Assembly (NCBI GenBank): GCA_949291455.1
Contig: CASEVQ010000004.1
Location: 1 to 57,055 of the forward strand
DNA: 57,055 nucleotides
Reading direction: 5' to 3'
Origin: an uncultured bacterium
GTDB taxonomy: Bacteria > Bacillota_I > Bacilli_A > RF39 > UBA660
Positions 23,284 through 45,297 of this stretch are shown piece by piece (the stretch's first letter is position 1; every line of letters starts with the position of its first letter). The translations under genes were made by a program, and so were the position numbers. The notes under the pieces are model-generated. The model was not told the DNA's origin. It was given only the letters and a program-made list of their open reading frames with translations, and searched no databases.

Positions 23284-24813
23284 CTATATTTCTTCAAATA
23301 ATTCTCTTGCTTTTTTTCGTAAATTATTTTTTTCATTTTTTACTATATCATTTTCTTCTATATATTTAAAACTATTTTTATCTACTTTATACATTTCTAT
23401 GTATTGATTCCATTCGGTTTCTGATAAACAAATTGTTTTATATTTTTTTTGAAAAATTTTTTCAAATATTTCATCTACTTTATATATATCGTTATTTATT
23501 TGTTCTGAAATACCTATAAGCTTCGATGTTAAAATTATATTTTGACTACTTGCTGCTACTGGCATTATATCAGAACTTAATAATCTAGCTAAATTTCCAT
23601 ATTCTGTATCAAATGCTAAATTTTTCAACTCATTCCATTTATTCCTTATATCTATTATTATTTGTTTTTCCGGATTACACAATGTATTTGATACTCTTAT
23701 TTTTTTTAAATCGTTTTTTATATTTTGCGTTTGATTAATATTTATTTCTTCTTCATTTTTTTTAATTACATTCTTCTTATTATTACTACTATTATTATTT
23801 TCATCTAGCATCATATCCAATAGTGTTACCTCAAAAATTATTTTTGGGTTTTCTGACTTTTTCATGCTATTTGATAATTCATCTAATTTTTTTATAATCA
23901 AACATTTGTTTGAATTGTATTCTTTTTGATTAATTATTATATTTTTTTCATATTCTATTAAATCATTGGTTAATTTTATTAAATCTATTCCATTATTATA
24001 AAATTCGTTTATTTTATTTAAAATCGCTTCTATATTTTTATTTTCAAATAGCAATAAAAAATTTTGCAATTCTTCGTCTGATATGTTTCCAGATATTTCT
24101 TTTATTGTATTAATATTTATTTCATCTTCTGAATATGAAATTGCTTTTTCTAATAATCCTATTGCATCTCGTAATCCACCATTTGAATATTTTGCTATTT
24201 CTTCAATAGCATTATTTTCAATTTTTATTTTTTCTTTTTCCGATATTTCCTTTAATTTTTCTTTTATATCATTTTCTTTTATTTTCATAAATTCAAGAGT
24301 CTGACATCTTGATATAATTGTTGCTGGAACTTTATTAATTTCTGTTGTTGCTAATATAAAAATTATATGTTCTGGTGGTTCTTCCAATGTTTTTAATAAT
24401 GCATTAAATGCACCAATAGATAACATATGCACTTCATCAATGATATATACTTTATATTTTAATTCTGAAGGAACAAAATTAACTTTATTTTTTAATTCTC
24501 TAATTTCATCAACTCCGTTATTTGATGCAGCATCTATCTCAATTATATCAACGCATTCTTTTTCGTTTGATAATAAACAATTATTACACTTTTCACATTG
24601 TATTCCATTATTATTATCTAAGCAATTAACTGCTCTAGAAAAAATTTTTGCAATAGATGTTTTTCCTGTTCCTCTTGGGCCATAAAACAAATACGCATGA
24701 GCAATTTTTTTATTTCTTATTGAATTTTTCAATATTTTAACAGTAATTTTTTGTCCAGAGACTTCATCAAAGTTTTTAGGTCGATATTTTCTATATAATG
24801 CTTGATATTTCAT
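23284..24813 (-). CDS. dnaX: DNA polymerase III subunit gamma/tau
   Basis: YRKYRPKNFDEV, GPRGTGKTS, Cys cluster CEKCNNC and IIDEVHML. Start at the ATG after GGAGG; the ORF track extends to 24828. Confidence 0.95.
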   Translation of the reverse strand: MKYQALYRKYRPKNFDEVSGQKITVKILKNSIRNKKIAHAYLFYGPRGTGKTSIAKIFSRAVNCLDNNNGIQCEKCNNCLLSNEKECVDIIEIDAASNNGVDEIRELKNKVNFVPSELKYKVYIIDEVHMLSIGAFNALLKTLEEPPEHIIFILATTEINKVPATIISRCQTLEFMKIKENDIKEKLKEISEKEKIKIENNAIEEIAKYSNGGLRDAIGLLEKAISYSEDEININTIKEISGNISDEELQNFLLLFENKNIEAILNKINEFYNNGIDLIKLTNDLIEYEKNIIINQKEYNSNKCLIIKKLDELSNSMKKSENPKIIFEVTLLDMMLDENNNSSNNKKNVIKKNEEEININQTQNIKNDLKKIRVSNTLCNPEKQIIIDIRNKWNELKNLAFDTEYGNLARLLSSDIMPVAASSQNIILTSKLIGISEQINNDIYKVDEIFEKIFQKKYKTICLSETEWNQYIEMYKVDKNSFKYIEENDIVKNEKNNLRKKARELFEEI

Positions 24814-24919
24814 TTTGCCTCCTTTCATTTATTTATATTATTATATCATATAAATATTTATTATTATAAAATTTTTTCCACATTTTTATTTTATATATAG
24901 CATTATTTATTCTCCATTT

Positions 24920-24935
24920 TATTTCCCGGGAAATA
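24920..24935. promoter_or_regulatory. NBS-1, Noc-binding-site-type palindrome
   Basis: TATTTCCCGGGAAATA is a perfect 16-bp palindrome containing the B. subtilis NBS core ATTTCCCGGGAAAT. Confidence 0.8.
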
Positions 24936-24967
24936 TTTTAGTGTTTTAGCTTCGTTCTCTTTTTTTA

Positions 24968-24983
24968 TGTTTCACGTGTAACA
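24968..24983. promoter_or_regulatory. parS-1, ParB/Spo0J binding site
   Basis: TGTTTCACGTGTAACA. Its reverse complement TGTTACACGTGAAACA fits TGTTNCACGTGAAACA exactly. Confidence 0.8.
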
Positions 24984-25002
24984 TTTCTTTTTTCCACTGT
25001 TT

Positions 25003-25018
25003 TATTTCCCGGGAAATA
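25003..25018. promoter_or_regulatory. NBS-2
   Basis: TATTTCCCGGGAAATA, perfect. Confidence 0.8.
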
Positions 25019-25049
25019 TTTTGGCTTTTTAACTTCGTTCTCTTTTTTA

Positions 25050-25065
25050 TGTTTCACGTGTAACA
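25050..25065. promoter_or_regulatory. parS-2
   Basis: TGTTTCACGTGTAACA, identical to parS-1. Confidence 0.8.
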
Positions 25066-25084
25066 TTTCTTTTTTCCACTGTTT

Positions 25085-25100
25085 TATTTCCCGGGAAATA
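25085..25100. promoter_or_regulatory. NBS-3
   Basis: TATTTCCCGGGAAATA, perfect. Confidence 0.8.
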
Positions 25101-25131
25101 TTTTGGCTTTTTTGCTTCGTTCTCTTTTTTA

Positions 25132-25147
25132 TGTTTCACGTGTAACA
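25132..25147. promoter_or_regulatory. parS-3
   Basis: TGTTTCACGTGTAACA. Confidence 0.8.
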
Positions 25148-25166
25148 TTTCTTTTTTCCACTGCTT

Positions 25167-25182
25167 TATTTCCCGGGAAATA
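25167..25182. promoter_or_regulatory. NBS-4
   Basis: TATTTCCCGGGAAATA, perfect. Confidence 0.8.
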
Positions 25183-25212
25183 TTTTGCTTTTTTGCTTCG
25201 TTCTCTTTTTTA

Positions 25213-25228
25213 TGTTTCACGTGTAACA
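25213..25228. promoter_or_regulatory. parS-4
   Basis: TGTTTCACGTGTAACA. Confidence 0.8.
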
Positions 25229-25247
25229 TTTCTTTTTTCCACTGCTT

Positions 25248-25263
25248 TATTTCCCGGGAAATA
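25248..25263. promoter_or_regulatory. NBS-5
   Basis: TATTTCCCGGGAAATA, perfect. Confidence 0.8.
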
Positions 25264-25294
25264 TTTTAGCTTTTTAGCTTCGTTCTCTTTTTTA

Positions 25295-25310
25295 TATTTC
25301 ACGTGTAACA
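25295..25310. promoter_or_regulatory. parS-5, variant with a hybrid half-site
   Basis: TATTTCACGTGTAACA has one change (G to A at position 2). The left half becomes TATTTCAC, intermediate between the parS half TGTTTCAC and the NBS half TATTTCCC. Confidence 0.5.
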
Positions 25311-25329
25311 TTTCTTTTTTCCACTGTTT

Positions 25330-25345
25330 TATTTCCCAGAAAACA
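25330..25345. promoter_or_regulatory. NBS-6, degenerate
   Basis: TATTTCCCAGAAAACA has 3 mismatches to the perfect palindrome. Confidence 0.3.
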
Positions 25346-25379
25346 TTTTAGTTCTTTTTATCTTCGTTTTCTTTTTTTA

Positions 25380-25395
25380 TGTTTCACGTGTAACA
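25380..25395. promoter_or_regulatory. parS-6
   Basis: TGTTTCACGTGTAACA. Confidence 0.8.
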
Positions 25396-25414
25396 TTTCT
25401 TTTTTCCACTGTTT

Positions 25415-25430
25415 TATTTCCCGGGAAATA
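25415..25430. promoter_or_regulatory. NBS-7
   Basis: TATTTCCCGGGAAATA, perfect. Confidence 0.8.
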
Positions 25431-25461
25431 TTTTGGCTTTTTAGCTTCGTTCTCTTTTTTA

Positions 25462-25477
25462 TGTTTCACGTGTAACA
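25462..25477. promoter_or_regulatory. parS-7
   Basis: TGTTTCACGTGTAACA. Confidence 0.8.
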
Positions 25478-25496
25478 TTTCTTTTTTCCACTGTTT

Positions 25497-25512
25497 TATT
25501 TCCCGGGAAATA
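25497..25512. promoter_or_regulatory. NBS-8
   Basis: TATTTCCCGGGAAATA, perfect. Confidence 0.8.
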
Positions 25513-25544
25513 TTTTGGTTTTTTAGCTTCGTTTTCTTTTTTTA

Positions 25545-25560
25545 TGTTTCACGTGTAACA
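25545..25560. promoter_or_regulatory. parS-8
   Basis: TGTTTCACGTGTAACA. Confidence 0.8.
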
Positions 25561-25649
25561 TTTTTTTCCACTGTTTTATTTCTCTGAAAATTATCTTTTT
25601 CTCATATAAAGTTACTTTTTTTAATTTTTAGTAAAAAAAAAGAAAAGTT

Positions 25650-33487: not shown

Positions 33488-33618
33488 ATTTGTTCCTTCT
33501 TTCTTTTATTTATATATATTTTATTATTATTACTGTGGATATTGTTGATAACTTTTATTTTTCTTTATTTTTTAATATATTTTTATTTTTAATCTGTGAA
33601 TAAAGTGTTTATATAGTG
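33488..33618. other. oriC part 2 (dnaA-dnaN intergenic): DnaA boxes plus an AT-rich unwinding candidate
   Basis: DnaA-box-like 9-mers on the minus strand: ATATCCACA (33534-33542), the adjacent TTATCAACA (33543-33551) and TTATTCACA (33595-33603), each 8/9 to TTATCCACA. Pure A/T stretch at 33505-33530. Confidence 0.75.
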
Positions 33619-34992: not shown

Positions 34993-35262
34993 CCCCTGAT
35001 AGAATTCCGAGCAAATCTATATGATATTTTAACTTAAATGTGGAAAAAAGAAAAGCAAAAAATAATAAAAAAAAATATCCACAATTTATTAACAAAGTTT
35101 TCCATAGTTTTTTTGCTTTGTTTTGAATATTTTTTTGATTTTTCCACATTTTCCACATTTTTTTATTAACATGTTATTTTGTAGTTATTAACAAGTCTGT
35201 TAATTATGTTGATAACTTAAAATATGTATTGTAATCTTTATTTTTTAATGTTAATATTTTAA
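34993..35262. other. oriC part 1 (upstream of dnaA): DnaA-box cluster and strand-switch point
   Basis: Boxes: TGTGGAAAA (35039-35047, reverse orientation), ATATCCACA (35075-35083), TTTTCCATA (35097-35105), tandem TTTTCCACA TTTTCCACA (35140-35157) and TGTTGATAA (35207-35215, reverse orientation). Genes diverge here, dnaA leftward and rpmH rightward. Confidence 0.8.
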
Positions 35263-39227: not shown

Positions 39228-41087
39228 ATGAAATATGATATAATTGTTATAGGTGGAGGACATGCTGGATGTGAAGCTTGTCTTGCTAGTGCTAGGTTAG
39301 GTAAGAAAACAATTTTGATTACTGGTAATAAAGAAAATATTGCAGATATGCCTTGTAATCCTTCAATCGGTGGTCCAGCAAAGGGAATTGTTGTTAGGGA
39401 AATAGATGCTCTTGGTGGAGAGATGGGTAAAAATATTGATAAGAGTTTTTTACAGATGAAGATGCTTAATACAAAAAAAGGACCAGCTGTAAGAGCATTA
39501 CGAGCTCAGGCTGATAAAATTACTTATAAAAAGGAAATGTTAAAAACATTGGAAAATCAAGAAAATTTGGAAATTTTAGAAGCCATGGTCGAAGATTTAA
39601 TTGTTGATGATAAAAAAATTAAAGGTGTTATTCTAGCAGACGGAAAAGAAGTTTTTGGTAATTGCGTTATTATTACTACTGGAACTTATTTAAAAGGTAT
39701 GATTCTTTATGGTTCAACTAAAATTTCAAGTGGTCCTCATGATGAAAAACCTTCACTTTATTTAAGTGATAGTTTAAAAAGATTAGGATTTAATATAAAA
39801 CGTTTAAAAACAGGAACTCCTCCTAGAATTAAAAAATCATCAATTGACTATTCTAAAGCAGTTATTCAGCCTGGTGATGATAAGTTGTATAACTTTTCTT
39901 TTTCAAAAAAAGTGGAATATGATGTTGATAAACAAATTCCATGCTATTTAATTTATACTACTTTAGAAACGCATAAAATAATAAAAGAGAATTTAACAAA
40001 ATCTAGTATGTATGGTGGATATGTTGAAGGAGTTGGTCCTAGATATTGTCCTTCTATCGAAGATAAAATTGTTAAGTTTGCTGATAAAGATAGACATCAA
40101 ATCTTTTTAGAACCAGAAAGCTTATTCTATGATGATATTTATATACAAGGTTTTTCTACTAGTATGCCTCATGATGTACAAGAAAAAATGGTTCATAGCT
40201 TACCAGGTTTAGAGAATGCTGAAATAGTAAAATATGCTTATGCAATCGAGTATGATGCAATAGATTCTAAACAATTAAAGCCTACATTAGAATCTAAATT
40301 AATTGATAATCTTTATACTGCTGGACAAATAAATGGTACTAGTGGATATGAAGAAGCAGCAGGGCAAGGATTAATTGCAGGTATTAATGCTGTTAGAAAA
40401 TTAGATGGTAAAGCTCCTTTAATTCTTTCTAGAAATGAAGCATATATAGGAGTATTAATAGATGATTTAGTTACTAAAGGTGTAATTGATCCTTATCGTT
40501 TACTTACTTCAAGAGCAGAATATAGATTATTATTAAGGCATGATAATGCTGATATAAGGCTTATGAATTATGGTAGAGAAATAGGTCTTATGGACGACGA
40601 AGTTTATGAAAAGTTTAAAAATAAAGTTGCTAATATTGAAGTTTTGACTGAATTATTAAAGAATACTAAGATAACTCCTAAAGCAGATATAAATAATTAT
40701 TTAGAAAGTATTGGTAGTACAATTATTTATGATAGTATTAATTTATATGATTTGTTAAAAAGACCTGAAATAGAATTTTCTAATATTAATAGATTTCTAA
40801 ATAATGAGTTTGATACTGAAGTTATAGAACAGGTAGTTATTAATATAAAATACGAAGGATATATTTCTAAGGAATTAAGAGAAGCTAAAAAAATGTTGGA
40901 ATATGAAAAAATAAAAATTAATGATAATATTGATTATAATAAAGTTCCAAATCTTGCAAAGGAAGCAATTCAAAAACTTAATGAAATAAGACCTATTTCT
41001 ATTGGGCAAGCATTAAGAATTAGCGGAGTAAATCCTTCAGATATTTCTATGTTATTGTTATATTTAAAGAGGAATTATAATGAATAA
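39228..41087 (+). CDS. mnmG: tRNA uridine 5-carboxymethylaminomethyl modification enzyme MnmG
   Basis: FAD motif [23 protein letters not shown] and [14 protein letters not shown]. Confidence 0.97.
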
Positions 41088-41784
41088 AGAAATTTTTATT
41101 AATGAATTAGAAAAATTAAAAATAGAAGTTACTGAAGATAAACTTGATAAATTAGATAAATTTTATAAGTTATTATTAGAGTGGAATGAAAAAATAAACT
41201 TAACAACTATTGTTTCTTGTGAAGAAGTATATTTAAAACATTTTTATGATAGTTTGACATTAATAAAAGCAGTTAATTTAAATGATAATTTAGCTTTATG
41301 TGATGTCGGTAGTGGCGCAGGTTTTCCAGGAATAGTTTTAAAAATATTTTTTCCAAATTTAAGTATAACTCTTATTGATTCGTTAAATAAAAGAGTAATA
41401 TATTTAAATGATGTTATAAAAAAATTAAATCTTAATAATATAAAAACAATACATTCTAGAATGGAAGATTATGCTAGGATAAATGAAGAAAAATTTGATA
41501 TTATTACAGCAAGAGCAGTTGCAAATATTAGAATTCTTACAGAAATATCTGTTAGAGCGTTAAAATTAGAAGGTAATTTAGTTTTTATGAAAGCTAATTG
41601 TGATGAGGAATTAGAAAATATAGAAAATCTTTTAGAAAAGCTTTCGTTGAATTTAGTTGATGTTAAAAAGTTTAAATTACCAATTGAAAACAGTAATAGA
41701 TCTTTGGTTATTTTTAATAAAAAAAATCATACTTCTAGAAAATTTCCACGAACTATTGATAAAATAAAAAGAAATCCATTGTAA
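41080..41784 (+). CDS. rsmG: 16S rRNA (guanine527-N7)-methyltransferase RsmG
   Basis: DVGSGAGFPGIVLKI SAM motif and ITARAVA. Start overlaps the mnmG stop. Confidence 0.95.
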   Translation: MNKEIFINELEKLKIEVTEDKLDKLDKFYKLLLEWNEKINLTTIVSCEEVYLKHFYDSLTLIKAVNLNDNLALCDVGSGAGFPGIVLKIFFPNLSITLIDSLNKRVIYLNDVIKKLNLNNIKTIHSRMEDYARINEEKFDIITARAVANIRILTEISVRALKLEGNLVFMKANCDEELENIENLLEKLSLNLVDVKKFKLPIENSNRSLVIFNKKNHTSRKFPRTIDKIKRNPL

Positions 41785-41797: not shown

Positions 41798-41848
41798 ATT
41801 TTATAATATATTTTAGATAATAGTTCAAAAGAATAGAGGGTGCTTAGT

Positions 41849-43333
41849 ATGGATAATGAGGTTGTATATTTATATTTGGATGATATTATACCTAATAGAT
41901 TTCAACCAAGAGAAGTTTTTGATGATCAAGCTTTAAAAGAATTGGCGATTTCTATAAAAGAACATGGTGTTATTCAGCCAATTATTGTTCGAAAAGTTGA
42001 AAACAAATATGAGATAATAGCAGGAGAGAGAAGATATAAAGCTTCTACTATGGCTGGTCTTACAAAAATTCCAGCTATTGTAAAAAATTTGGATGATAAG
42101 GAAAGCTCTAAAATAGCTCTTATTGAAAATTTACAAAGAAGAGATTTAACTCCAATTGAAGAAGCTAGAACATATCAGAAAATTTTAGAATTAGAACCTG
42201 GTATGACTCAAGAACAATTAGCAGCTACTATGGGAAAAACTCAATCAGTAGTTTCAAATAAGTTAAGACTTTTAGCATTACCAGATGAGATACAAGATGC
42301 TTTGTTAAAAGAAAAAATTTCAGAGAGACATGCGAGAAGTTTATTAAATTTAGTAAATAAGAATGATCAAATAAAAATGTTAGATAAAGTAATTGCAGAA
42401 AGAATGACTGTAAGAGAATTAGATAAGGAAATTAAGGAAATGAACGATAATCAAGGACAAAATTCAGAAAATAGTAATTTAATTAATACAATTGGAAATA
42501 TTAATAATAATTCAAATTCTGTTATAAATAGTAATTTAAATAATAATAGTGTTGGCATTAATTCTGATGTTAATAATCCATTTAATATTAATAATCCATT
42601 TAAGAGTATACCTTCGACAAATGGTTTATTAGATTCTAACAATACTATTAATTCTAATCAGGCAAATTCATTTGTTTCAGATAAAAATTCATTAAATTCT
42701 AATATAAATAATAATGGCTTTATCAATAATAGTATAAGTAATAACAATAATTTTAATAATAATGTGAGTAGTAATAATAATATTAATGGTATACCACCTA
42801 TGCAATCAACAAATACATCTGTTGGTCAATCAAATTTAATCAATCCTACAACTGTTGATATAAATAAAATAAGAGAAAATGCAATGGATATTAATAAGCA
42901 AAATACTTCACCAGTAAATGTTAAAGATTTAATGAGAGATACATCATCAAATTCTAATTTTAAATTTGTTCCTAATGAAAATTCTAATGTTAATAATAAT
43001 AGCTTTGTGCCTAATAATAATCAATCTTCTTTTTTGAATAATTCTTCAACTCAAAAAGAAAATACTAATGGTTCTGGTTCTATTATTAATTTATTTAAAG
43101 AAGTTTCAAAAATGCCAGTTAATAATTTAAATACTGTTAATAATACTTCTTCGGTTCCGACTTTTAATCTTAATGCTTTTAATAATTCAAATAAGAAAGA
43201 TGTTATGCCAGCAATTAATGATATAAAGTCAACAGTTAAGAATATTGAAAATAAGGGTTATAAAGTTTTGATTGAAGAAAATGACACGGATAATTCTTAT
43301 CAGATTGTTATTAAAGTAGATAAAAATATATAA
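41849..43333 (+). CDS. noc: Noc-type ParB-family protein (nucleoid occlusion protein homolog) with a long Asn/Ser-rich insertion
   Basis: IIPNRFQPREVF (Noc-type box I), IAGERRYKA (CTP-binding GERRxRA), HTH GKTQSVVSNKLRLL..ISERHARSL (resembles B. subtilis Noc GKGQSTIANKLRLL..ITERHARAL), and a C-terminal KGYKVLIEENDTDNSYQIVIKVDK (cf. Noc SGVKLNTEEEEFEEYIQLTIRIPK). Position between rsmG and soj is conserved. An in-frame TAG at 41834 precludes a longer N-terminus. Confidence 0.8.
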   Translation: MDNEVVYLYLDDIIPNRFQPREVFDDQALKELAISIKEHGVIQPIIVRKVENKYEIIAGERRYKASTMAGLTKIPAIVKNLDDKESSKIALIENLQRRDLTPIEEARTYQKILELEPGMTQEQLAATMGKTQSVVSNKLRLLALPDEIQDALLKEKISERHARSLLNLVNKNDQIKMLDKVIAERMTVRELDKEIKEMNDNQGQNSENSNLINTIGNINNNSNSVINSNLNNNSVGINSDVNNPFNINNPFKSIPSTNGLLDSNNTINSNQANSFVSDKNSLNSNINNNGFINNSISNNNNFNNNVSSNNNINGIPPMQSTNTSVGQSNLINPTTVDINKIRENAMDINKQNTSPVNVKDLMRDTSSNSNFKFVPNENSNVNNNSFVPNNNQSSFLNNSSTQKENTNGSGSIINLFKEVSKMPVNNLNTVNNTSSVPTFNLNAFNNSNKKDVMPAINDIKSTVKNIENKGYKVLIEENDTDNSYQIVIKVDKNI

Positions 43334-43450: not shown

Positions 43451-44233
43451 ATGGGAAAGATGATTTCTTTAGTTAATCAAAAAGGTGGGGTTGGTAAGAC
43501 TACAACAAGTATAAATCTTTCAGCATCTTTGGCATATTTAGGTAAGAAAGTTTTATTATTAGATTTAGATCCTCAAGGAAATACGACTACTGGCATTGGA
43601 ATGAATAAGGGGGATATTGATAAAACTATTTATGATGTTTTAATTGGAAGATGTGATATTAAAGAGGCAATAATTCATACAAAATATAGAAAATTAGATT
43701 TACTTCCAGCTACTGTTAATTTAAGTGGGTTGGATACGGAGTTTTTTGAAAGAAGTAAGGAAGAACCAAATTTTGTTAAAGGTGCACAGTTAAAAAATAA
43801 AATAGATCCTATAAGAGATGAATATGATTTTATTATTGTTGATTGTCCTCCATCTCTTAGTATTATTACTATTAATGCTTTAACAGCTTCTAATTCAGTT
43901 ATTATTCCTGTACAGTGTGAGTTTTTGGCATTGGAAGGAATTATGCAGTTGTTAAATACTATTATGATGGCACAAAGACAATTAAATCCTAATTTGGATA
44001 TTGAAGGGGTTTTGCTTACAATGCTAGATTCAAGAGCAAATTTAGGATTTGAAGTTGTTGAAGAAATAAGAAAATATTTTAAAGAACGTGTTTATAATAC
44101 TATAATACCTAGGTTAGTGCGATTAGCAGAATGTCCATCACATGGAAAACCTATTATAGCATATGATCCAAAATGTAGGGCAACTGATGCTTATTTAAAT
44201 TTAGCAAAGGAAGTGATTGAGAGAAATGGATAA
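43451..44233 (+). CDS. soj: chromosome partitioning ATPase ParA/Soj
   Basis: Deviant Walker A NQKGGVGKTT. LLDLDPQGN and VDCPPSL. Confidence 0.95.
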   Translation: MGKMISLVNQKGGVGKTTTSINLSASLAYLGKKVLLLDLDPQGNTTTGIGMNKGDIDKTIYDVLIGRCDIKEAIIHTKYRKLDLLPATVNLSGLDTEFFERSKEEPNFVKGAQLKNKIDPIRDEYDFIIVDCPPSLSIITINALTASNSVIIPVQCEFLALEGIMQLLNTIMMAQRQLNPNLDIEGVLLTMLDSRANLGFEVVEEIRKYFKERVYNTIIPRLVRLAECPSHGKPIIAYDPKCRATDAYLNLAKEVIERNG

Positions 44234-45107
44234 TAATTTTAAAAGAAGGGCTTTAGGTAAAGGACTTGAAGAATTATTTAATAATGAGCAATTAGATTTT
44301 AACAGTTTAGAAGAAAAAATAGTAGATACTACACCAAAAGAAGAAATAATTGAAATAGATATAAATGAACTTAGAAGTAATCCATATCAACCAAGAAAAG
44401 TTTTTGATGAAGAAAAATTACAGGAATTAGCAAATTCTATTAAAGAACATGGAATATTTCAACCTATAATAGTAAAAAAAAGCAGTATTAAAGGATATGA
44501 GATAATTGCTGGTGAAAGACGTGTTAAAGCTGCCAATATAGCAGGATTATCTAAAATACCAGCTATCGTACGTGATTTTTCTGACCAACAAATGATGGAA
44601 ATAGCACTTCTTGAAAATTTACAAAGAGAAAATTTAAATGCTATTGAAGAAGCAATGGCTTATAGAAGTTTGATTAATAGTATGCAGATTACGCAAGAAG
44701 TATTAGCTAATCGTTTGGGTAAAAGTAGAAGTCATGTTACTAATATATTAGGTCTTTTAAACCTTCCAGAAGAAGTTAAAGACATGATTGTTGATAATAA
44801 AATATCGATGAGTCATGCTAGAATTCTTAGTAAAATGGAAAAAAAAGAGGAAATTTTAGCATTGGCAAATAAGATTGTTAATGAAAATTTAAATGTTAGA
44901 GAATTAGAAGATGTTTCAAAAGATGAGTCTGTTGCAAAAACTCATAAAATTAATAAGAAAAATAATTCAGAATATTCTTATATTGAAAATATATTGTGTG
45001 AAAAATTAGGAACTAAAGTAAAAATTAATAATAATAAGATAAATATTTCTTTTAGTAATATTAATGATTTAAATAGAATTTTAGAAATATTAAATATAAA
45101 TGAGTGA
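44226..45107 (+). CDS. spo0J: chromosome partitioning protein ParB/Spo0J
   Basis: N-terminal ParA-stimulating peptide ALGKGLEELF. Box I SNPYQPRKVF, IAGERRVKA, and HTH GKSRSHVTNILGLL with the ParB-type Arg. Start overlaps the soj stop. Confidence 0.9.
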   Translation: MDNNFKRRALGKGLEELFNNEQLDFNSLEEKIVDTTPKEEIIEIDINELRSNPYQPRKVFDEEKLQELANSIKEHGIFQPIIVKKSSIKGYEIIAGERRVKAANIAGLSKIPAIVRDFSDQQMMEIALLENLQRENLNAIEEAMAYRSLINSMQITQEVLANRLGKSRSHVTNILGLLNLPEEVKDMIVDNKISMSHARILSKMEKKEEILALANKIVNENLNVRELEDVSKDESVAKTHKINKKNNSEYSYIENILCEKLGTKVKINNNKINISFSNINDLNRILEILNINE

Positions 45108-45297
45108 TTTTATGAATGATAAGAAGTATGATGTTGGTACTGTAGTTACAATGAAAAAGGGGCATCCATGTGGAACAAATGAATGGGAAATAGTTAGAAT
45201 TGGTGCTGATATTAAAATTAAATGTATCAATTGTGGTAGATTAGTTATGATGCCTAGAATAGAGTTTAATAAAAAATTAAAAAAGATTATTAAGTAG
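45100..45297 (+). CDS. DUF951 family protein (YyzM-like)
   Basis: VGTVVTMKKGHPCGTNEWEIVRIGADIKIKCINCGRLVMMPRIEF is the DUF951 signature. Conserved position after spo0J. The start may be the ATG at 45112. Confidence 0.75.
   Translation: MSDFMNDKKYDVGTVVTMKKGHPCGTNEWEIVRIGADIKIKCINCGRLVMMPRIEFNKKLKKIIK

What the first reader, a model, noticed from the sequence alone, without database searches (positions are those of the whole stretch)
41849..43333. Atypical Noc: no room for the N-terminal membrane-targeting helix and a ~250-aa Asn/Ser-rich insertion before the C-terminal domain
SEEN: The rsmG-proximal ParB paralog has Noc-type signatures (PNRFQPR, GKTQS..SNKLRLL..SERHARSL, C-terminal KGYKVLIEENDTDNSYQIVIKVDK). 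Its reading frame is closed by TAG at 41834, so PNRFQPR starts at about residue 15 from the ATG. In B. subtilis Noc, as I recall it, about 38 residues precede this motif, including the amphipathic helix MKHSFSRFFGLG. Residues ~201-452 (nt 42440-43195) are an in-frame run dominated by N, S and short NNPF/NSN repeats. They sit between the HTH/DNA-binding module and the C-terminal domain, where Bacillus Noc has only a short basic linker. ESTABLISHED: The nucleoid-occlusion activity of B. subtilis Noc depends on CTP-dependent spreading from NBS plus membrane binding through its N-terminal amphipathic helix. INFERENCE: This protein may bind NBS, and so the array at 24912-25592, without tethering DNA to the membrane in the canonical way. 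The long disordered, prion-like N-rich linker could promote higher-order assembly or condensation. Together with the clustered NBS array, this suggests a repurposed Noc.
Basis: partly seen in the sequence, partly recalled or inferred. Interest (0 to 1): 0.65.

Follow-up and report, generated by a model that had tools for sequence, protein, structure and literature searches.

The report
Helix-less Noc with giant disordered linker
This gene encodes a relative of the cell-division regulator Noc that has no membrane-anchoring helix and carries a 250-residue floppy linker with conserved short motifs, an architecture shared by a very large group of uncultured gut bacteria in which Noc sites sit interleaved with chromosome-segregation (parS) sites, so Noc has probably taken on a different job there.

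Summary
CDS 41849-43333 (494 aa) follows rsmG and precedes soj-spo0J. An in-frame TAG at 41834 leaves 14 residues before PNRFQPR. Residues 201-449 are predicted disordered (N 32%, S 15%, against 7.7% and 5.6% in the other ORFs). Four independent chicken-gut assemblies show the segment without indels.

The protein belongs to the Noc lineage. Its best PDB and fold matches are Noc, it is sister to canonical Noc in a tree (83% bootstrap), its C-terminal domain is Noc-type, and it carries NBS-type residues Q132/K138/R160. It is not an oddity. All 150 best cluster representatives and 69/69 related loci share the short N-terminus and a 90-550 aa linker. They come from uncultured genome-reduced gut Bacilli.

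N-richness is not conserved. Five motif islands in the linker are conserved, and hydrophobic-Phe motifs are enriched. Perfect NBS sites occur in the window only in an 82-bp tandem array, alternating with parS, about 9 kb from oriC. NBS-parS juxtaposition recurs in at least 110 related species genomes.

Best reading: a CTP clamp loaded at a composite origin-proximal centromere, using linker motifs instead of the CTP-gated membrane helix. The partner is unknown. I class it as a new variant of a known kind.

The parts
41834..41836 (+). In-frame stop codon TAG that closes the reading frame upstream of the start
   Evidence: Sequence. In 69/69 related loci the open frame before IIPNRFQPR is only 13-34 codons.
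41835..41842 (+). Shine-Dalgarno AGAGGGTG, 6 nt upstream of ATG 41849
   Evidence: Sequence. The same element sits upstream of the orthologs' ATG.
41849..43333 (+). Noc-like CDS, 494 aa plus stop
41864..42136 (+). ParB N-terminal CTPase domain (aa 6-96). R62 and N94 correspond to B. subtilis Noc R89 and N121.
   Evidence: PF02195, E 1.3e-35. R61, R62, E93, N94, Q96 and R97 are invariant in 90 sequences. Roles of R89 and N121 from PMC8429893.
42143..42445 (+). ParB-type HTH DNA-binding domain (aa 99-199). Specificity positions are Q132 (nt 42242-42244), K138 (42260-42262), A143 (42275-42277) and R160 (42326-42328).
   Evidence: PF17762, E 1.1e-31. Alignment to Noc 7NG0/7OL9. Specificity rule from PMC7383237. 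Q132, K138 and R160 are invariant.
42449..42841 (+). Spacer 1 (aa 201-331). It is 37% Asn and 17% Ser with about 5% charged residues, is not conserved, and varies in length.
42842..42973 (+). Conserved A-B-C motif module (aa 332-375): A is NPTTVDINKIRENAMDI, B is VNVKDLMR, C is FKFVP.
   Evidence: Conservation profile. Module alignment A3. Weak helices at 338-344 and 358-361, pLDDT 55-67. No PDB or Pfam relative.
42974..43195 (+). Spacer 2 (aa 376-449). It holds island D (aa 410-422, nt 43076-43114, SIINLFKEVSKM; family consensus N-x-F-x-x-F-F) and island E (aa 429-434, nt 43133-43150; family consensus N-V-A-S-S-I).
43196..43330 (+). Noc-type C-terminal domain (aa 450-494), a helix followed by two strands
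   Evidence: pLDDT about 94. On its own it matches positions 210-255 of TIGR04285, E 6.8e-6, while the Spo0J C-terminal domain gives no hit.
24917..25582 (.). Tandem array of 8.1 units of 82 bp. Each unit has an NBS (ATTTCCCGGGAAAT; 7 perfect) and a parS (TGTTACACGTGAAACA; 7 perfect, 1 with one mismatch). This is the presumed loading site of this protein and of Spo0J.
41080..41784 (+). rsmG, the upstream neighbour as in Bacillus
   Evidence: TIGR00138, E 2.3e-48.
43451..44233 (+). soj/parA
   Evidence: ParA-family hits.
44217..45107 (+). spo0J/parB, with a normal N-terminal ParA-interaction peptide (RRALGKGLEELF) and ParB-type residues at the specificity positions

Best explanation
The gene encodes a Noc-lineage ParB-family CTP-dependent DNA clamp.

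Shown:
- It keeps the CTP-binding and gate residues.
- It keeps the NBS-type recognition residues and the Noc-type C-terminal dimerisation domain.
- It starts directly at strand beta1, so it has neither the membrane-targeting helix nor the alpha2 helix that holds that helix in check.
- Between the DNA-binding and C-terminal domains it has a 249-residue disordered linker with five conserved short motifs.
- This architecture is the norm in a large clade of uncultured, genome-reduced gut Bacilli.
- In that clade perfect NBS sites sit interleaved with parS sites, here as an 82-bp tandem array about 9 kb from oriC.

Inferred:
- The protein loads at the NBS sites of this composite centromere-like array and closes into a clamp on CTP binding.
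- It slides onto flanking origin-proximal DNA alongside ParB clamps loaded at the neighbouring parS sites.
- It does not pull DNA to the membrane through a CTP-gated N-terminal helix. Instead it displays multivalent linker motifs (the A-B-C module and hydrophobic-Phe stickers).
- These motifs recruit a partner that is still unidentified, or make the origin complex self-associate.
- Its role has therefore shifted from chromosome-wide nucleoid occlusion to an origin-specific function in organising, anchoring or segregating the origin region.
For: Noc identity:
- Best PDB sequence hits are Noc 7NG0/7NFU (208 bits) and 7OL9, ahead of Spo0J.
- Best fold match is 7NFU, TM 0.81.
- TIGR04285 scores 292.5 bits, against 241 for the window's own Spo0J.
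- The C-terminal domain alone matches the Noc profile.
- In an NJ tree the family is 100% monophyletic, and the split of the family plus canonical Noc from ParB has 83% bootstrap.
- Gene order is rsmG-noc-soj-spo0J.

NBS specificity:
- Q132, K138 and R160 are invariant.
- The published rule is that Q173 and R201 need a Lys at position 179 or 184.
- Seven perfect NBS lie in the window against a chance expectation near zero.

CTP switch: R62 and N94 (R89 and N121 in B. subtilis) are invariant.

No N-terminal helix.

Clade-wide architecture.

Disordered linker with conserved islands.

Non-random hydrophobic-Phe stickers: z = 8.8 and 15.3 against shuffles, with up to 9 copies per protein.

Clustered sites:
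- In 57 kb, NBS and parS cores occur only in the array, and none occurs in 545 kb of related noc-flanking DNA.
- NBS-parS juxtaposition was found in at least 119 stretches. About 110 of them are from low-GC genomes of the same clade, and 48 of 122 loci hold at least 3 NBS and at least 3 parS.

Published precedent: B. subtilis Noc lacking the helix still binds CTP but does not bind liposomes and cannot complement.
Against: - Nothing here is experimental. DNA binding, CTP binding and absence of membrane binding are all inferred from sequence.
- The partner of the linker motifs is unknown, and the motifs have no homolog in PDB or Pfam.
- The genome-wide NBS distribution could not be examined. Only the window and about 0.55 Mb of related origin-proximal loci were scanned, so dispersed sites elsewhere are not excluded.
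- Island D is the most amphipathic stretch of this protein (muH 0.70, discriminant 0.99, similar to the B. subtilis Noc helix). It resembles the F-x-K-F-F cores of Firmicute membrane helices, so a relocated membrane anchor remains possible.
- The tree uses only two canonical Noc sequences and a distance method.
- TIGR04285 scores below its trusted cut-off of 315.
- Interleaving of NBS and parS in this window could partly reflect duplication of one 82-bp unit.
Confidence: 0.55

Rival explanations
1. It is still a membrane-tethering nucleoid-occlusion factor. The membrane anchor has moved from the N-terminus into the linker (island D, F-x-x-F-F, and other hydrophobic-Phe motifs), and the long linker gives the reach from DNA to membrane.
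For: Island D (IINLFKEVSKM) has the highest hydrophobic moment in the linker, 0.70, and a discriminant of 0.99, against 1.02-1.09 for the B. subtilis Noc helix. Orthologs show N-K-F-F-G and F-A-K-F-F cores like those I recall from Noc (SRFFGLG), MinD and SepF membrane helices. The motif is multi-copy in some branches.
Against: Net charge of the motif is about 0 or negative in most orthologs, whereas known helices carry +2 to +4. The maximal hydrophobic moment falls in island D in only 17 of 90 sequences and is usually within the range of shuffled linkers. Conservation is moderate, about 0.5. The motif context is acidic or polar (D, N, S, G after Phe). No CTP-gated autoinhibition is evident.
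Confidence: 0.2
2. One reading: the Asn/Ser-rich, prion-like linker drives condensation or higher-order assembly of the NBS-bound protein.
For: In this protein the linker has low charge (9.6%), 47% N+S, and aromatic or aliphatic residues every 15-25 residues. Family-wide hydrophobic-Phe stickers are enriched. Some members have nine SLFG-like repeats, reminiscent of cohesive FG domains.
Against: N-richness and low charge are confined to a small sub-clade. The family has about 12% N and about 25% charged residues, and some linkers are Pro/Ala/Thr/Glu-rich. N content tracks AT content (rho = -0.48). Spacer 1 ranges from 55 to 131 aa among relatives with 98% core identity. That pattern fits drift better than a selected material property.
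Confidence: 0.15
3. The linker is a neutral, slippage-prone spacer in an AT-rich reduced genome. The protein is a decaying or functionless Noc remnant, and the arrays serve ParB only.
For: Spacer sequence and length turn over very fast. A weak tandem repeat lies in the coding DNA. The lineage is genome-reduced, and some members are predicted to lack peptidoglycan (PMC10868615).
Against: The core is 74-98% identical across species whose spacers no longer align. Q132, K138, R160, R62 and N94 are invariant. The C-terminal domain and the A-B-C module are retained across the family. Perfect palindromic NBS sites are maintained in multiple copies in more than 100 species. No frameshifts or stops appear in 69 loci.
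Confidence: 0.05

Closest known systems
Nucleoid occlusion protein Noc of Bacillus subtilis and Geobacillus thermoleovorans (PDB 7OL9, 7NFU, 7NG0, 6Y93)
   Same: ParB-type CTPase domain with the same CTP residues. HTH with Q/K/R NBS-recognition residues. An identical 14-bp NBS consensus in the genome. A Noc-type C-terminal domain. The position rsmG-noc-soj-spo0J. About 50% identity over the core, and sister position in the tree.
   Different: There is no alpha1 membrane-targeting helix, no alpha2 and no loop. The natural N-terminus lies within a residue or two of the engineered N-delta-26 construct. A 249-aa disordered linker (90-550 aa in the family) replaces a linker of about 12 aa. Position 184 is not Lys. 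NBS sites are clustered with parS near oriC rather than, as far as could be seen, dispersed. The TIGR04285 score is below the trusted cut-off.
Engineered B. subtilis NocN-delta-10 (Adams 2015; Jalal 2021, PMC8429893)
   Same: A Noc without the membrane helix. The laboratory variant still binds CTP and NBS.
   Different: The laboratory variant is non-functional for nucleoid occlusion and forms no peripheral foci. The natural protein is under strong purifying selection and has gained a motif-bearing linker, which implies a different output.
Chromosomal ParB/Spo0J (PDB 6SDK, 1VZ0, 6T1F)
   Same: Same fold and CTP-clamp logic. Loading at clustered origin-proximal palindromic sites is ParB-like behaviour.
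   Different: Specificity residues are Noc-type (Q and R at positions 173 and 201) rather than R and G. The motif is PNRFQPR rather than PNPYQPR. There is no N-terminal ParA-activating peptide. The C-terminal domain differs. A bona fide ParB is encoded two genes downstream.
KorB of plasmid RK2 (PDB 8QA8/8QA9)
   Same: A ParB-family CTP clamp whose output depends on recruiting a partner protein rather than on ParA or the membrane. It is a precedent for repurposed ParB clamps.
   Different: Only distant similarity (28-31% identity), a different DNA site, and a known partner (KorA). No comparable giant linker.
Cohesive FG/GLFG-type disordered domains (a resemblance recalled from memory, not homology)
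   Same: Uncharged Asn/Ser-rich spacers punctuated by Phe-containing stickers. SLFG-like repeats occur up to 9 times in family member P0131.
   Different: This is a bacterial DNA clamp, the composition is not conserved across the family, and no functional evidence exists.

Membership tests
Noc (nucleoid occlusion protein, ParB paralog of Firmicutes) | ParB/Srx-type N-terminal CTPase domain with a GERR box and the ENLQR motif (B. subtilis R89, N121) | tested here: met
   PF02195, E 1.3e-35. R62 and N94 align to R89 and N121 and are invariant in 90 family members.
Noc (nucleoid occlusion protein, ParB paralog of Firmicutes) | NBS-specificity residues Q173, K179, K184, R201 (Caulobacter ParB numbering; Jalal 2020) | tested here: met
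   The residues are Q132, K138, A143 and R160, so three of four match. The paper states that one Lys at 179 or 184 suffices. Position 184 is never Lys among the representatives whose HTH motif could be read.
Noc (nucleoid occlusion protein, ParB paralog of Firmicutes) | N-terminal amphipathic membrane-targeting helix (about 10 aa) followed by conserved helix alpha2 | tested here: not met
   The frame is closed 5 codons upstream of the ATG. Residue 4 aligns to Noc residue 27 or 29. The N-terminal lipid-binding discriminant is negative. The helix is absent in 69/69 loci and in all 150 representatives, apart from a few probable miscalled starts.
Noc (nucleoid occlusion protein, ParB paralog of Firmicutes) | Cognate NBS sites (ATTTCCCGGGAAAT) in the genome | tested here: met
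   Seven perfect sites at 24921-25511, where none is expected by chance.
Noc (nucleoid occlusion protein, ParB paralog of Firmicutes) | NBS sites dispersed over the chromosome and depleted near the terminus | tested here: inconclusive
   All sites in the 57-kb window are in one array. There are no NBS cores in 545 kb of related noc-flanking loci. Whole genomes could not be scanned.
Noc (nucleoid occlusion protein, ParB paralog of Firmicutes) | Curated family model TIGR04285 at or above its trusted cut-off (315 bits) | tested here: not met
   292.5 bits in two stretches split by the linker. The window's ParB scores 241. Public records name the orthologs only 'ParB/RepB/Spo0J family partition protein'.
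Noc (nucleoid occlusion protein, ParB paralog of Firmicutes) | Phylogenetic grouping with Noc rather than ParB, and the rsmG-noc-soj-spo0J gene order | tested here: met
   NJ tree with 83% bootstrap for the split of Noc plus this family from ParB. Gene order.
Noc (nucleoid occlusion protein, ParB paralog of Firmicutes) | CTP-dependent membrane binding and inhibition of division over the nucleoid | not testable with these tools
   This needs liposome co-sedimentation and in vivo assays.
Chromosomal ParB/Spo0J | parS-type specificity residues, an N-terminal ParA-interaction peptide and the ParB_C dimerisation domain | tested here: not met
   The residues are Q and R instead of R and G/S at positions 173 and 201. 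No LG(R/K)GL peptide is present. There is no PF23552 hit, whereas the downstream Spo0J has one.

The most novel reading that the evidence does not exclude
In genome-reduced gut Bacilli the Noc lineage has become a second centromere-binding clamp. It is co-loaded with ParB at interleaved NBS/parS arrays next to oriC. It uses a giant disordered linker with multivalent motifs (the A-B-C module and hydrophobic-Phe stickers) to condense or anchor the origin region or to recruit a segregation, division or replication partner. This would be a two-clamp composite centromere with no described counterpart.
Probability: 0.35. Interest if true: 0.85.

Novelty: new variant of a known kind. Interest (0 to 1): 0.68.

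Why it matters
[quoted passage not shown] This is a natural, strongly conserved and very widespread Noc lineage in which that output has been removed and replaced by a motif-bearing disordered linker. Its DNA sites have also moved into arrays shared with parS.

If the inference holds:
- ParB-family clamps can swap their effector module during evolution while keeping the site-specific loading and CTP gate.
- Chromosome organisation in a major, uncultured, partly wall-less group of gut bacteria uses two paralogous clamps on one centromere.
- The protein offers a tractable in vitro system (recombinant protein plus the 82-bp unit) to ask what Noc does when it does not bind the membrane.
- Public annotation currently labels these proteins only as generic ParB.

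Tried and rejected
- An upstream non-canonical start supplying a helix is rejected. TAG at 41834 closes the frame, and GTG 41840 adds only MLS and overlaps the Shine-Dalgarno. The frames are equally short in 69/69 loci.
- An assembly artefact or collapsed repeat is rejected, given four independent assemblies without indels and a near-identical database protein, P0001.
- ParB-type specificity is rejected.
- Asn-richness as the conserved, selected feature is rejected.
- A relocated membrane helix at island D was examined. The support is weak and inconsistent, so it is kept as a rival.
- Homology of the A-B-C module to anything known: the profile search against PDB gave only chance-level hits (ribosomal protein eS1, E 0.027), and Pfam gave nothing.
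- The same motifs in other proteins of the clade: none in about 1.5 Mb of six-frame translation.
- BLASTP of the C-terminal domain against my remembered B. subtilis Noc sequence gave no alignment. The profile search did detect the Noc C-terminal domain.
- Naming the organisms of distant family members through cluster look-up was uninformative.
- Exact GTDB order assignment (RFN20, RF39 or ML615J-28) was not achieved. Only record titles and the literature context were available.
Full report
**The sequence.** The window is the replication-origin region of a genome with about 25% GC. The GC skew changes sign at about 34-35 kb. DnaA-box clusters flank dnaA at 33534-33603 and 35039-35215. The gene order is recR-ybaB-dnaX | array | tadA-gyrA-gyrB-recF-dnaN-dnaA | ... 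mnmG-rsmG-[this gene]-soj-spo0J. The CDS runs from ATG 41849 to the stop at 43331-43333 (494 aa). Its frame is closed by TAG 41834-41836. The only other in-frame start, GTG 41840, adds three residues and lies inside the Shine-Dalgarno AGAGGGTG. PNRFQPR begins at residue 15.

**The N-terminus.** In alignments to solved structures, residue 4 pairs with residue 29 of B. subtilis Noc and residue 27 of G. thermoleovorans Noc. The protein therefore starts at strand beta1. It lacks the 10-residue membrane-targeting helix alpha1, the conserved helix alpha2 and the 8-residue loop described by Jalal et al. 2021 (PMC8429893). Its natural N-terminus nearly coincides with their engineered N-delta-26 construct (7NG0). 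An 11-residue amphipathicity scan of residues 1-18 gives negative lipid-binding discriminants (-0.1 to -1.16). Known membrane helices give 1.0-1.7.

**The linker.** Residues 201-449 are 32% Asn and 15% Ser, against 7.7% and 5.6% in the other 54 ORFs, and only 9.6% charged. AlphaFold2 with a 90-sequence alignment folds residues 1-204 and 450-492 confidently and leaves most of 205-445 below pLDDT 50. Contigs from four sequencing runs in three chicken-gut studies cover the gene with 0-3 substitutions and no indels.

**Identity.**
- The best sequence matches among solved structures are Noc (7NG0/7NFU 208 bits, 7OL9 184 bits), ahead of Spo0J (178 bits).
- The best fold match is Noc 7NFU, with TM 0.81 and 2.5 Å over 200 columns.
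- The NCBIfam Noc model TIGR04285 scores 292.5 bits. The window's own Spo0J scores 241, and the trusted cut-off is 315.
- The C-terminal 55 residues alone match positions 210-255 of that model (E 6.8e-6), whereas the Spo0J C-terminus does not.
- In a neighbour-joining tree of 38 core domains the family is monophyletic in 100% of bootstraps. The split joining it with canonical Noc against all ParBs has 83% support.
- The specificity positions defined by Jalal et al. 2020 are Q132, K138, A143 and R160. The paper states that Q173 and R201 recognise NBS provided a Lys is present at position 179 or 184 (PMC7383237). Q132, K138 and R160 are invariant in family alignments.
- R62 and N94 are also invariant. 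They correspond to B. subtilis R89 and N121, which are needed for CTP binding and spreading.

The protein is thus best called a Noc-lineage clamp predicted to bind NBS and CTP. It fails one defining Noc feature, the membrane helix.

**It is not an oddity.** Twelve related loci all show the same short N-terminus, an upstream stop next to the Shine-Dalgarno, and a long variable linker. The 120 best database hits are 387-518 aa long. I searched 1.84 billion cluster representatives with residues 1-205. All 150 best hits, down to 54-60% core identity, are 316-798 aa long (two shorter ones look truncated). Nearly all have only 9-21 residues before PNRFQPR, and the few with more look like miscalled starts. 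Wherever the HTH motif could be read they show the Q/K/R triad and a non-Lys residue at position 184, and they share the same C-terminal domain. In 69 non-redundant loci with DNA, the open frame before IIPNRFQPR is 13-34 codons and the linker is 90-321 aa with a median of 209. The 80 best genomes are all uncultured gut 'Bacilli', 'Tenericutes' or 'Erysipelotrichaceae' MAGs, Clostridium sp. CAG:417, or Candidatus Onthousia. These are the reduced-genome orders RFN20, RF39 and ML615J-28, some of which are predicted to lack peptidoglycan (PMC10868615). Public records call these proteins only 'ParB/RepB/Spo0J family partition protein'.

**What is and is not conserved in the linker.** Asn-richness is not conserved.
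- Family linkers have about 12% Asn and about 25% charged residues, and some are Pro/Ala/Thr/Glu-rich.
- Asn content falls with locus GC (rho = -0.48).
- Against relatives with 98% core identity, spacer 1 is 131 aa here versus 55 aa there, with 15% identity. The A-B-C module stays 70% identical and the C-terminal domain 86-91% identical.

Five islands are conserved:
- A, residues 332-348: NPTTVDINKIRENAMDI.
- B, residues 356-363: VNVKDLMR. Distant members have ADLDSLLK.
- C, residues 371-375: FKFVP.
- D, residues 410-416: family consensus N-x-F-x-x-F-F.
- E, residues 429-434: family consensus N-V-A-S-S-I.

A and B are weakly predicted helices with pLDDT 55-67, as expected for motifs that fold on binding. 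The module has no relative in PDB or Pfam and is not found in other ORFs across about 1.5 Mb of clade DNA. Across 194 non-redundant linkers, hydrophobic-Phe followed by a small polar residue occurs 263 times against 162 ± 12 in shuffles. F-x-x-[FL]-[FL] occurs 74 times against 15 ± 4. Some members carry nine SLFG-like repeats or five to six NEFLxFLNxFD repeats. The linker is therefore a fast-evolving spacer carrying multivalent short motifs.

**The DNA sites.** The window has seven perfect NBS sites and eight parS sites, seven perfect and one with a single mismatch. They alternate in an 82-bp tandem array of 8.1 copies at 24917-25582, between dnaX and tadA and about 9 kb from dnaA. CCCGGG occurs nowhere else in the 57 kb. 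Neither NBS nor parS cores occur in 545 kb of noc-flanking DNA from 92 related loci. An exact NBS-gap-parS pattern found five related species. About 110 of these come from low-GC genomes of the same clade. Of 122 loci, 48 hold at least 3 NBS and at least 3 parS within 8 kb, and several are tandem arrays with other periods. Juxtaposition of NBS and parS is thus a clade trait that coincides with the helix-less, long-linker Noc.

**Mechanism.**
- Shown: domain content, invariant CTP and NBS residues, absence of the helix, the disordered motif-bearing linker, and clustered interleaved sites.
- Inferred: the protein loads at NBS in the composite array, clamps on CTP and slides onto origin-proximal DNA together with ParB. 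It acts through its linker motifs, either by recruiting a partner or by self-association, rather than through a CTP-gated membrane helix. It therefore serves an origin-specific role.
- Published work shows that B. subtilis Noc without the helix still binds CTP but neither binds liposomes nor complements. A strongly conserved natural helix-less Noc must therefore have another output.

**Rivals.** I weigh three alternatives:
- An internal membrane anchor at island D. It is the most amphipathic segment here, but it has low charge and this property is not conserved.
- Condensation driven by Asn-richness. The composition is not conserved.
- Neutral decay. This is contradicted by strong purifying selection on the core, the modules and the sites.

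**Limits.**
- No experiments were done.
- Whole genomes could not be scanned for dispersed NBS sites.
- The tree uses two canonical Noc sequences and a distance method.
- Whether the helix was lost here or gained in the Bacillales lineage is open.
- Literature searches found no description of this architecture or of NBS/parS arrays. The library is incomplete.

Noticed in passing
window 24917-25582: An 82-bp tandem array of 8.1 copies (93% matches) in the dnaX-tadA intergenic region. Each unit carries one NBS and one parS, with centres alternately about 48 and about 35 bp apart. Two NBS copies (25331, 25578) and one parS copy (25295) are degenerate.
   Followed up: partly
window 24874-24882 and each array unit (e.g. 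24991-24999): Every array unit also contains TTTTCCACT, one mismatch from TTTTCCACA. TTTTCCACA is the DnaA-box variant that dominates the oriC cluster at 35039-35157, and a perfect copy sits just left of the array at 24874. The array may also titrate or bind DnaA.
   Followed up: no
L013-L017, L098-L214 (e.g. L014 7099-7738, L185 1141-2090, L150 2431-3685): Mixed NBS/parS clusters recur in more than 100 species genomes of the same uncultured clade. Some are tandem arrays with other unit lengths (75 bp in L014) and up to 12 NBS plus 12 parS within 950 bp (L185).
   Followed up: partly
window 33534-33603 and 35039-35215: A bipartite oriC. DnaA-box clusters lie on both sides of dnaA, and the GC skew changes sign at about 34-35 kb.
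   Followed up: partly
window 44217-45107 and all 92 noc-flanking loci: There is no parS core inside or near spo0J, unlike what I recall for B. subtilis. All parS cores of the window are in the array.
   Followed up: partly
window 23284-24828 (dnaX, aa ~344-404): DnaX has the second most Asn-rich 60-residue window among the window's ORFs (27% N), probably in its variable linker region. Asn-rich linkers may be a general habit of this genome.
   Followed up: no
P0131, P0220, P0247 (distant family members): Their linkers contain multi-copy motifs: nine [ND]-S-L-F-G repeats (P0131), five to six N-E-F-L-x-F-L-N-x-F-D repeats (P0220), and repeated F-x-K-F-[FL]-D-P (P0247). These suggest multivalent binding or FG-like cohesion.
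   Followed up: partly
window 42721-42787: A 30-bp imperfect tandem repeat (2.2 copies) lies in the linker-coding DNA. Spacer 1 is 131 aa here but 55 aa in relatives with 98% core identity, which fits replication slippage as the source of linker length variation.
   Followed up: partly
window 25103-25351 (+): An 82-aa TTG-initiated ORF lies wholly inside the NBS/parS array. It is almost certainly a by-product of the repeat and not a gene.
   Followed up: no
window 45100-45297: A small 65-aa ORF with a CxxC...CxxC pattern directly after spo0J has no NCBIfam hit. From memory it resembles the DUF951/YyzM-type small protein found at this position in Firmicutes.
   Followed up: no
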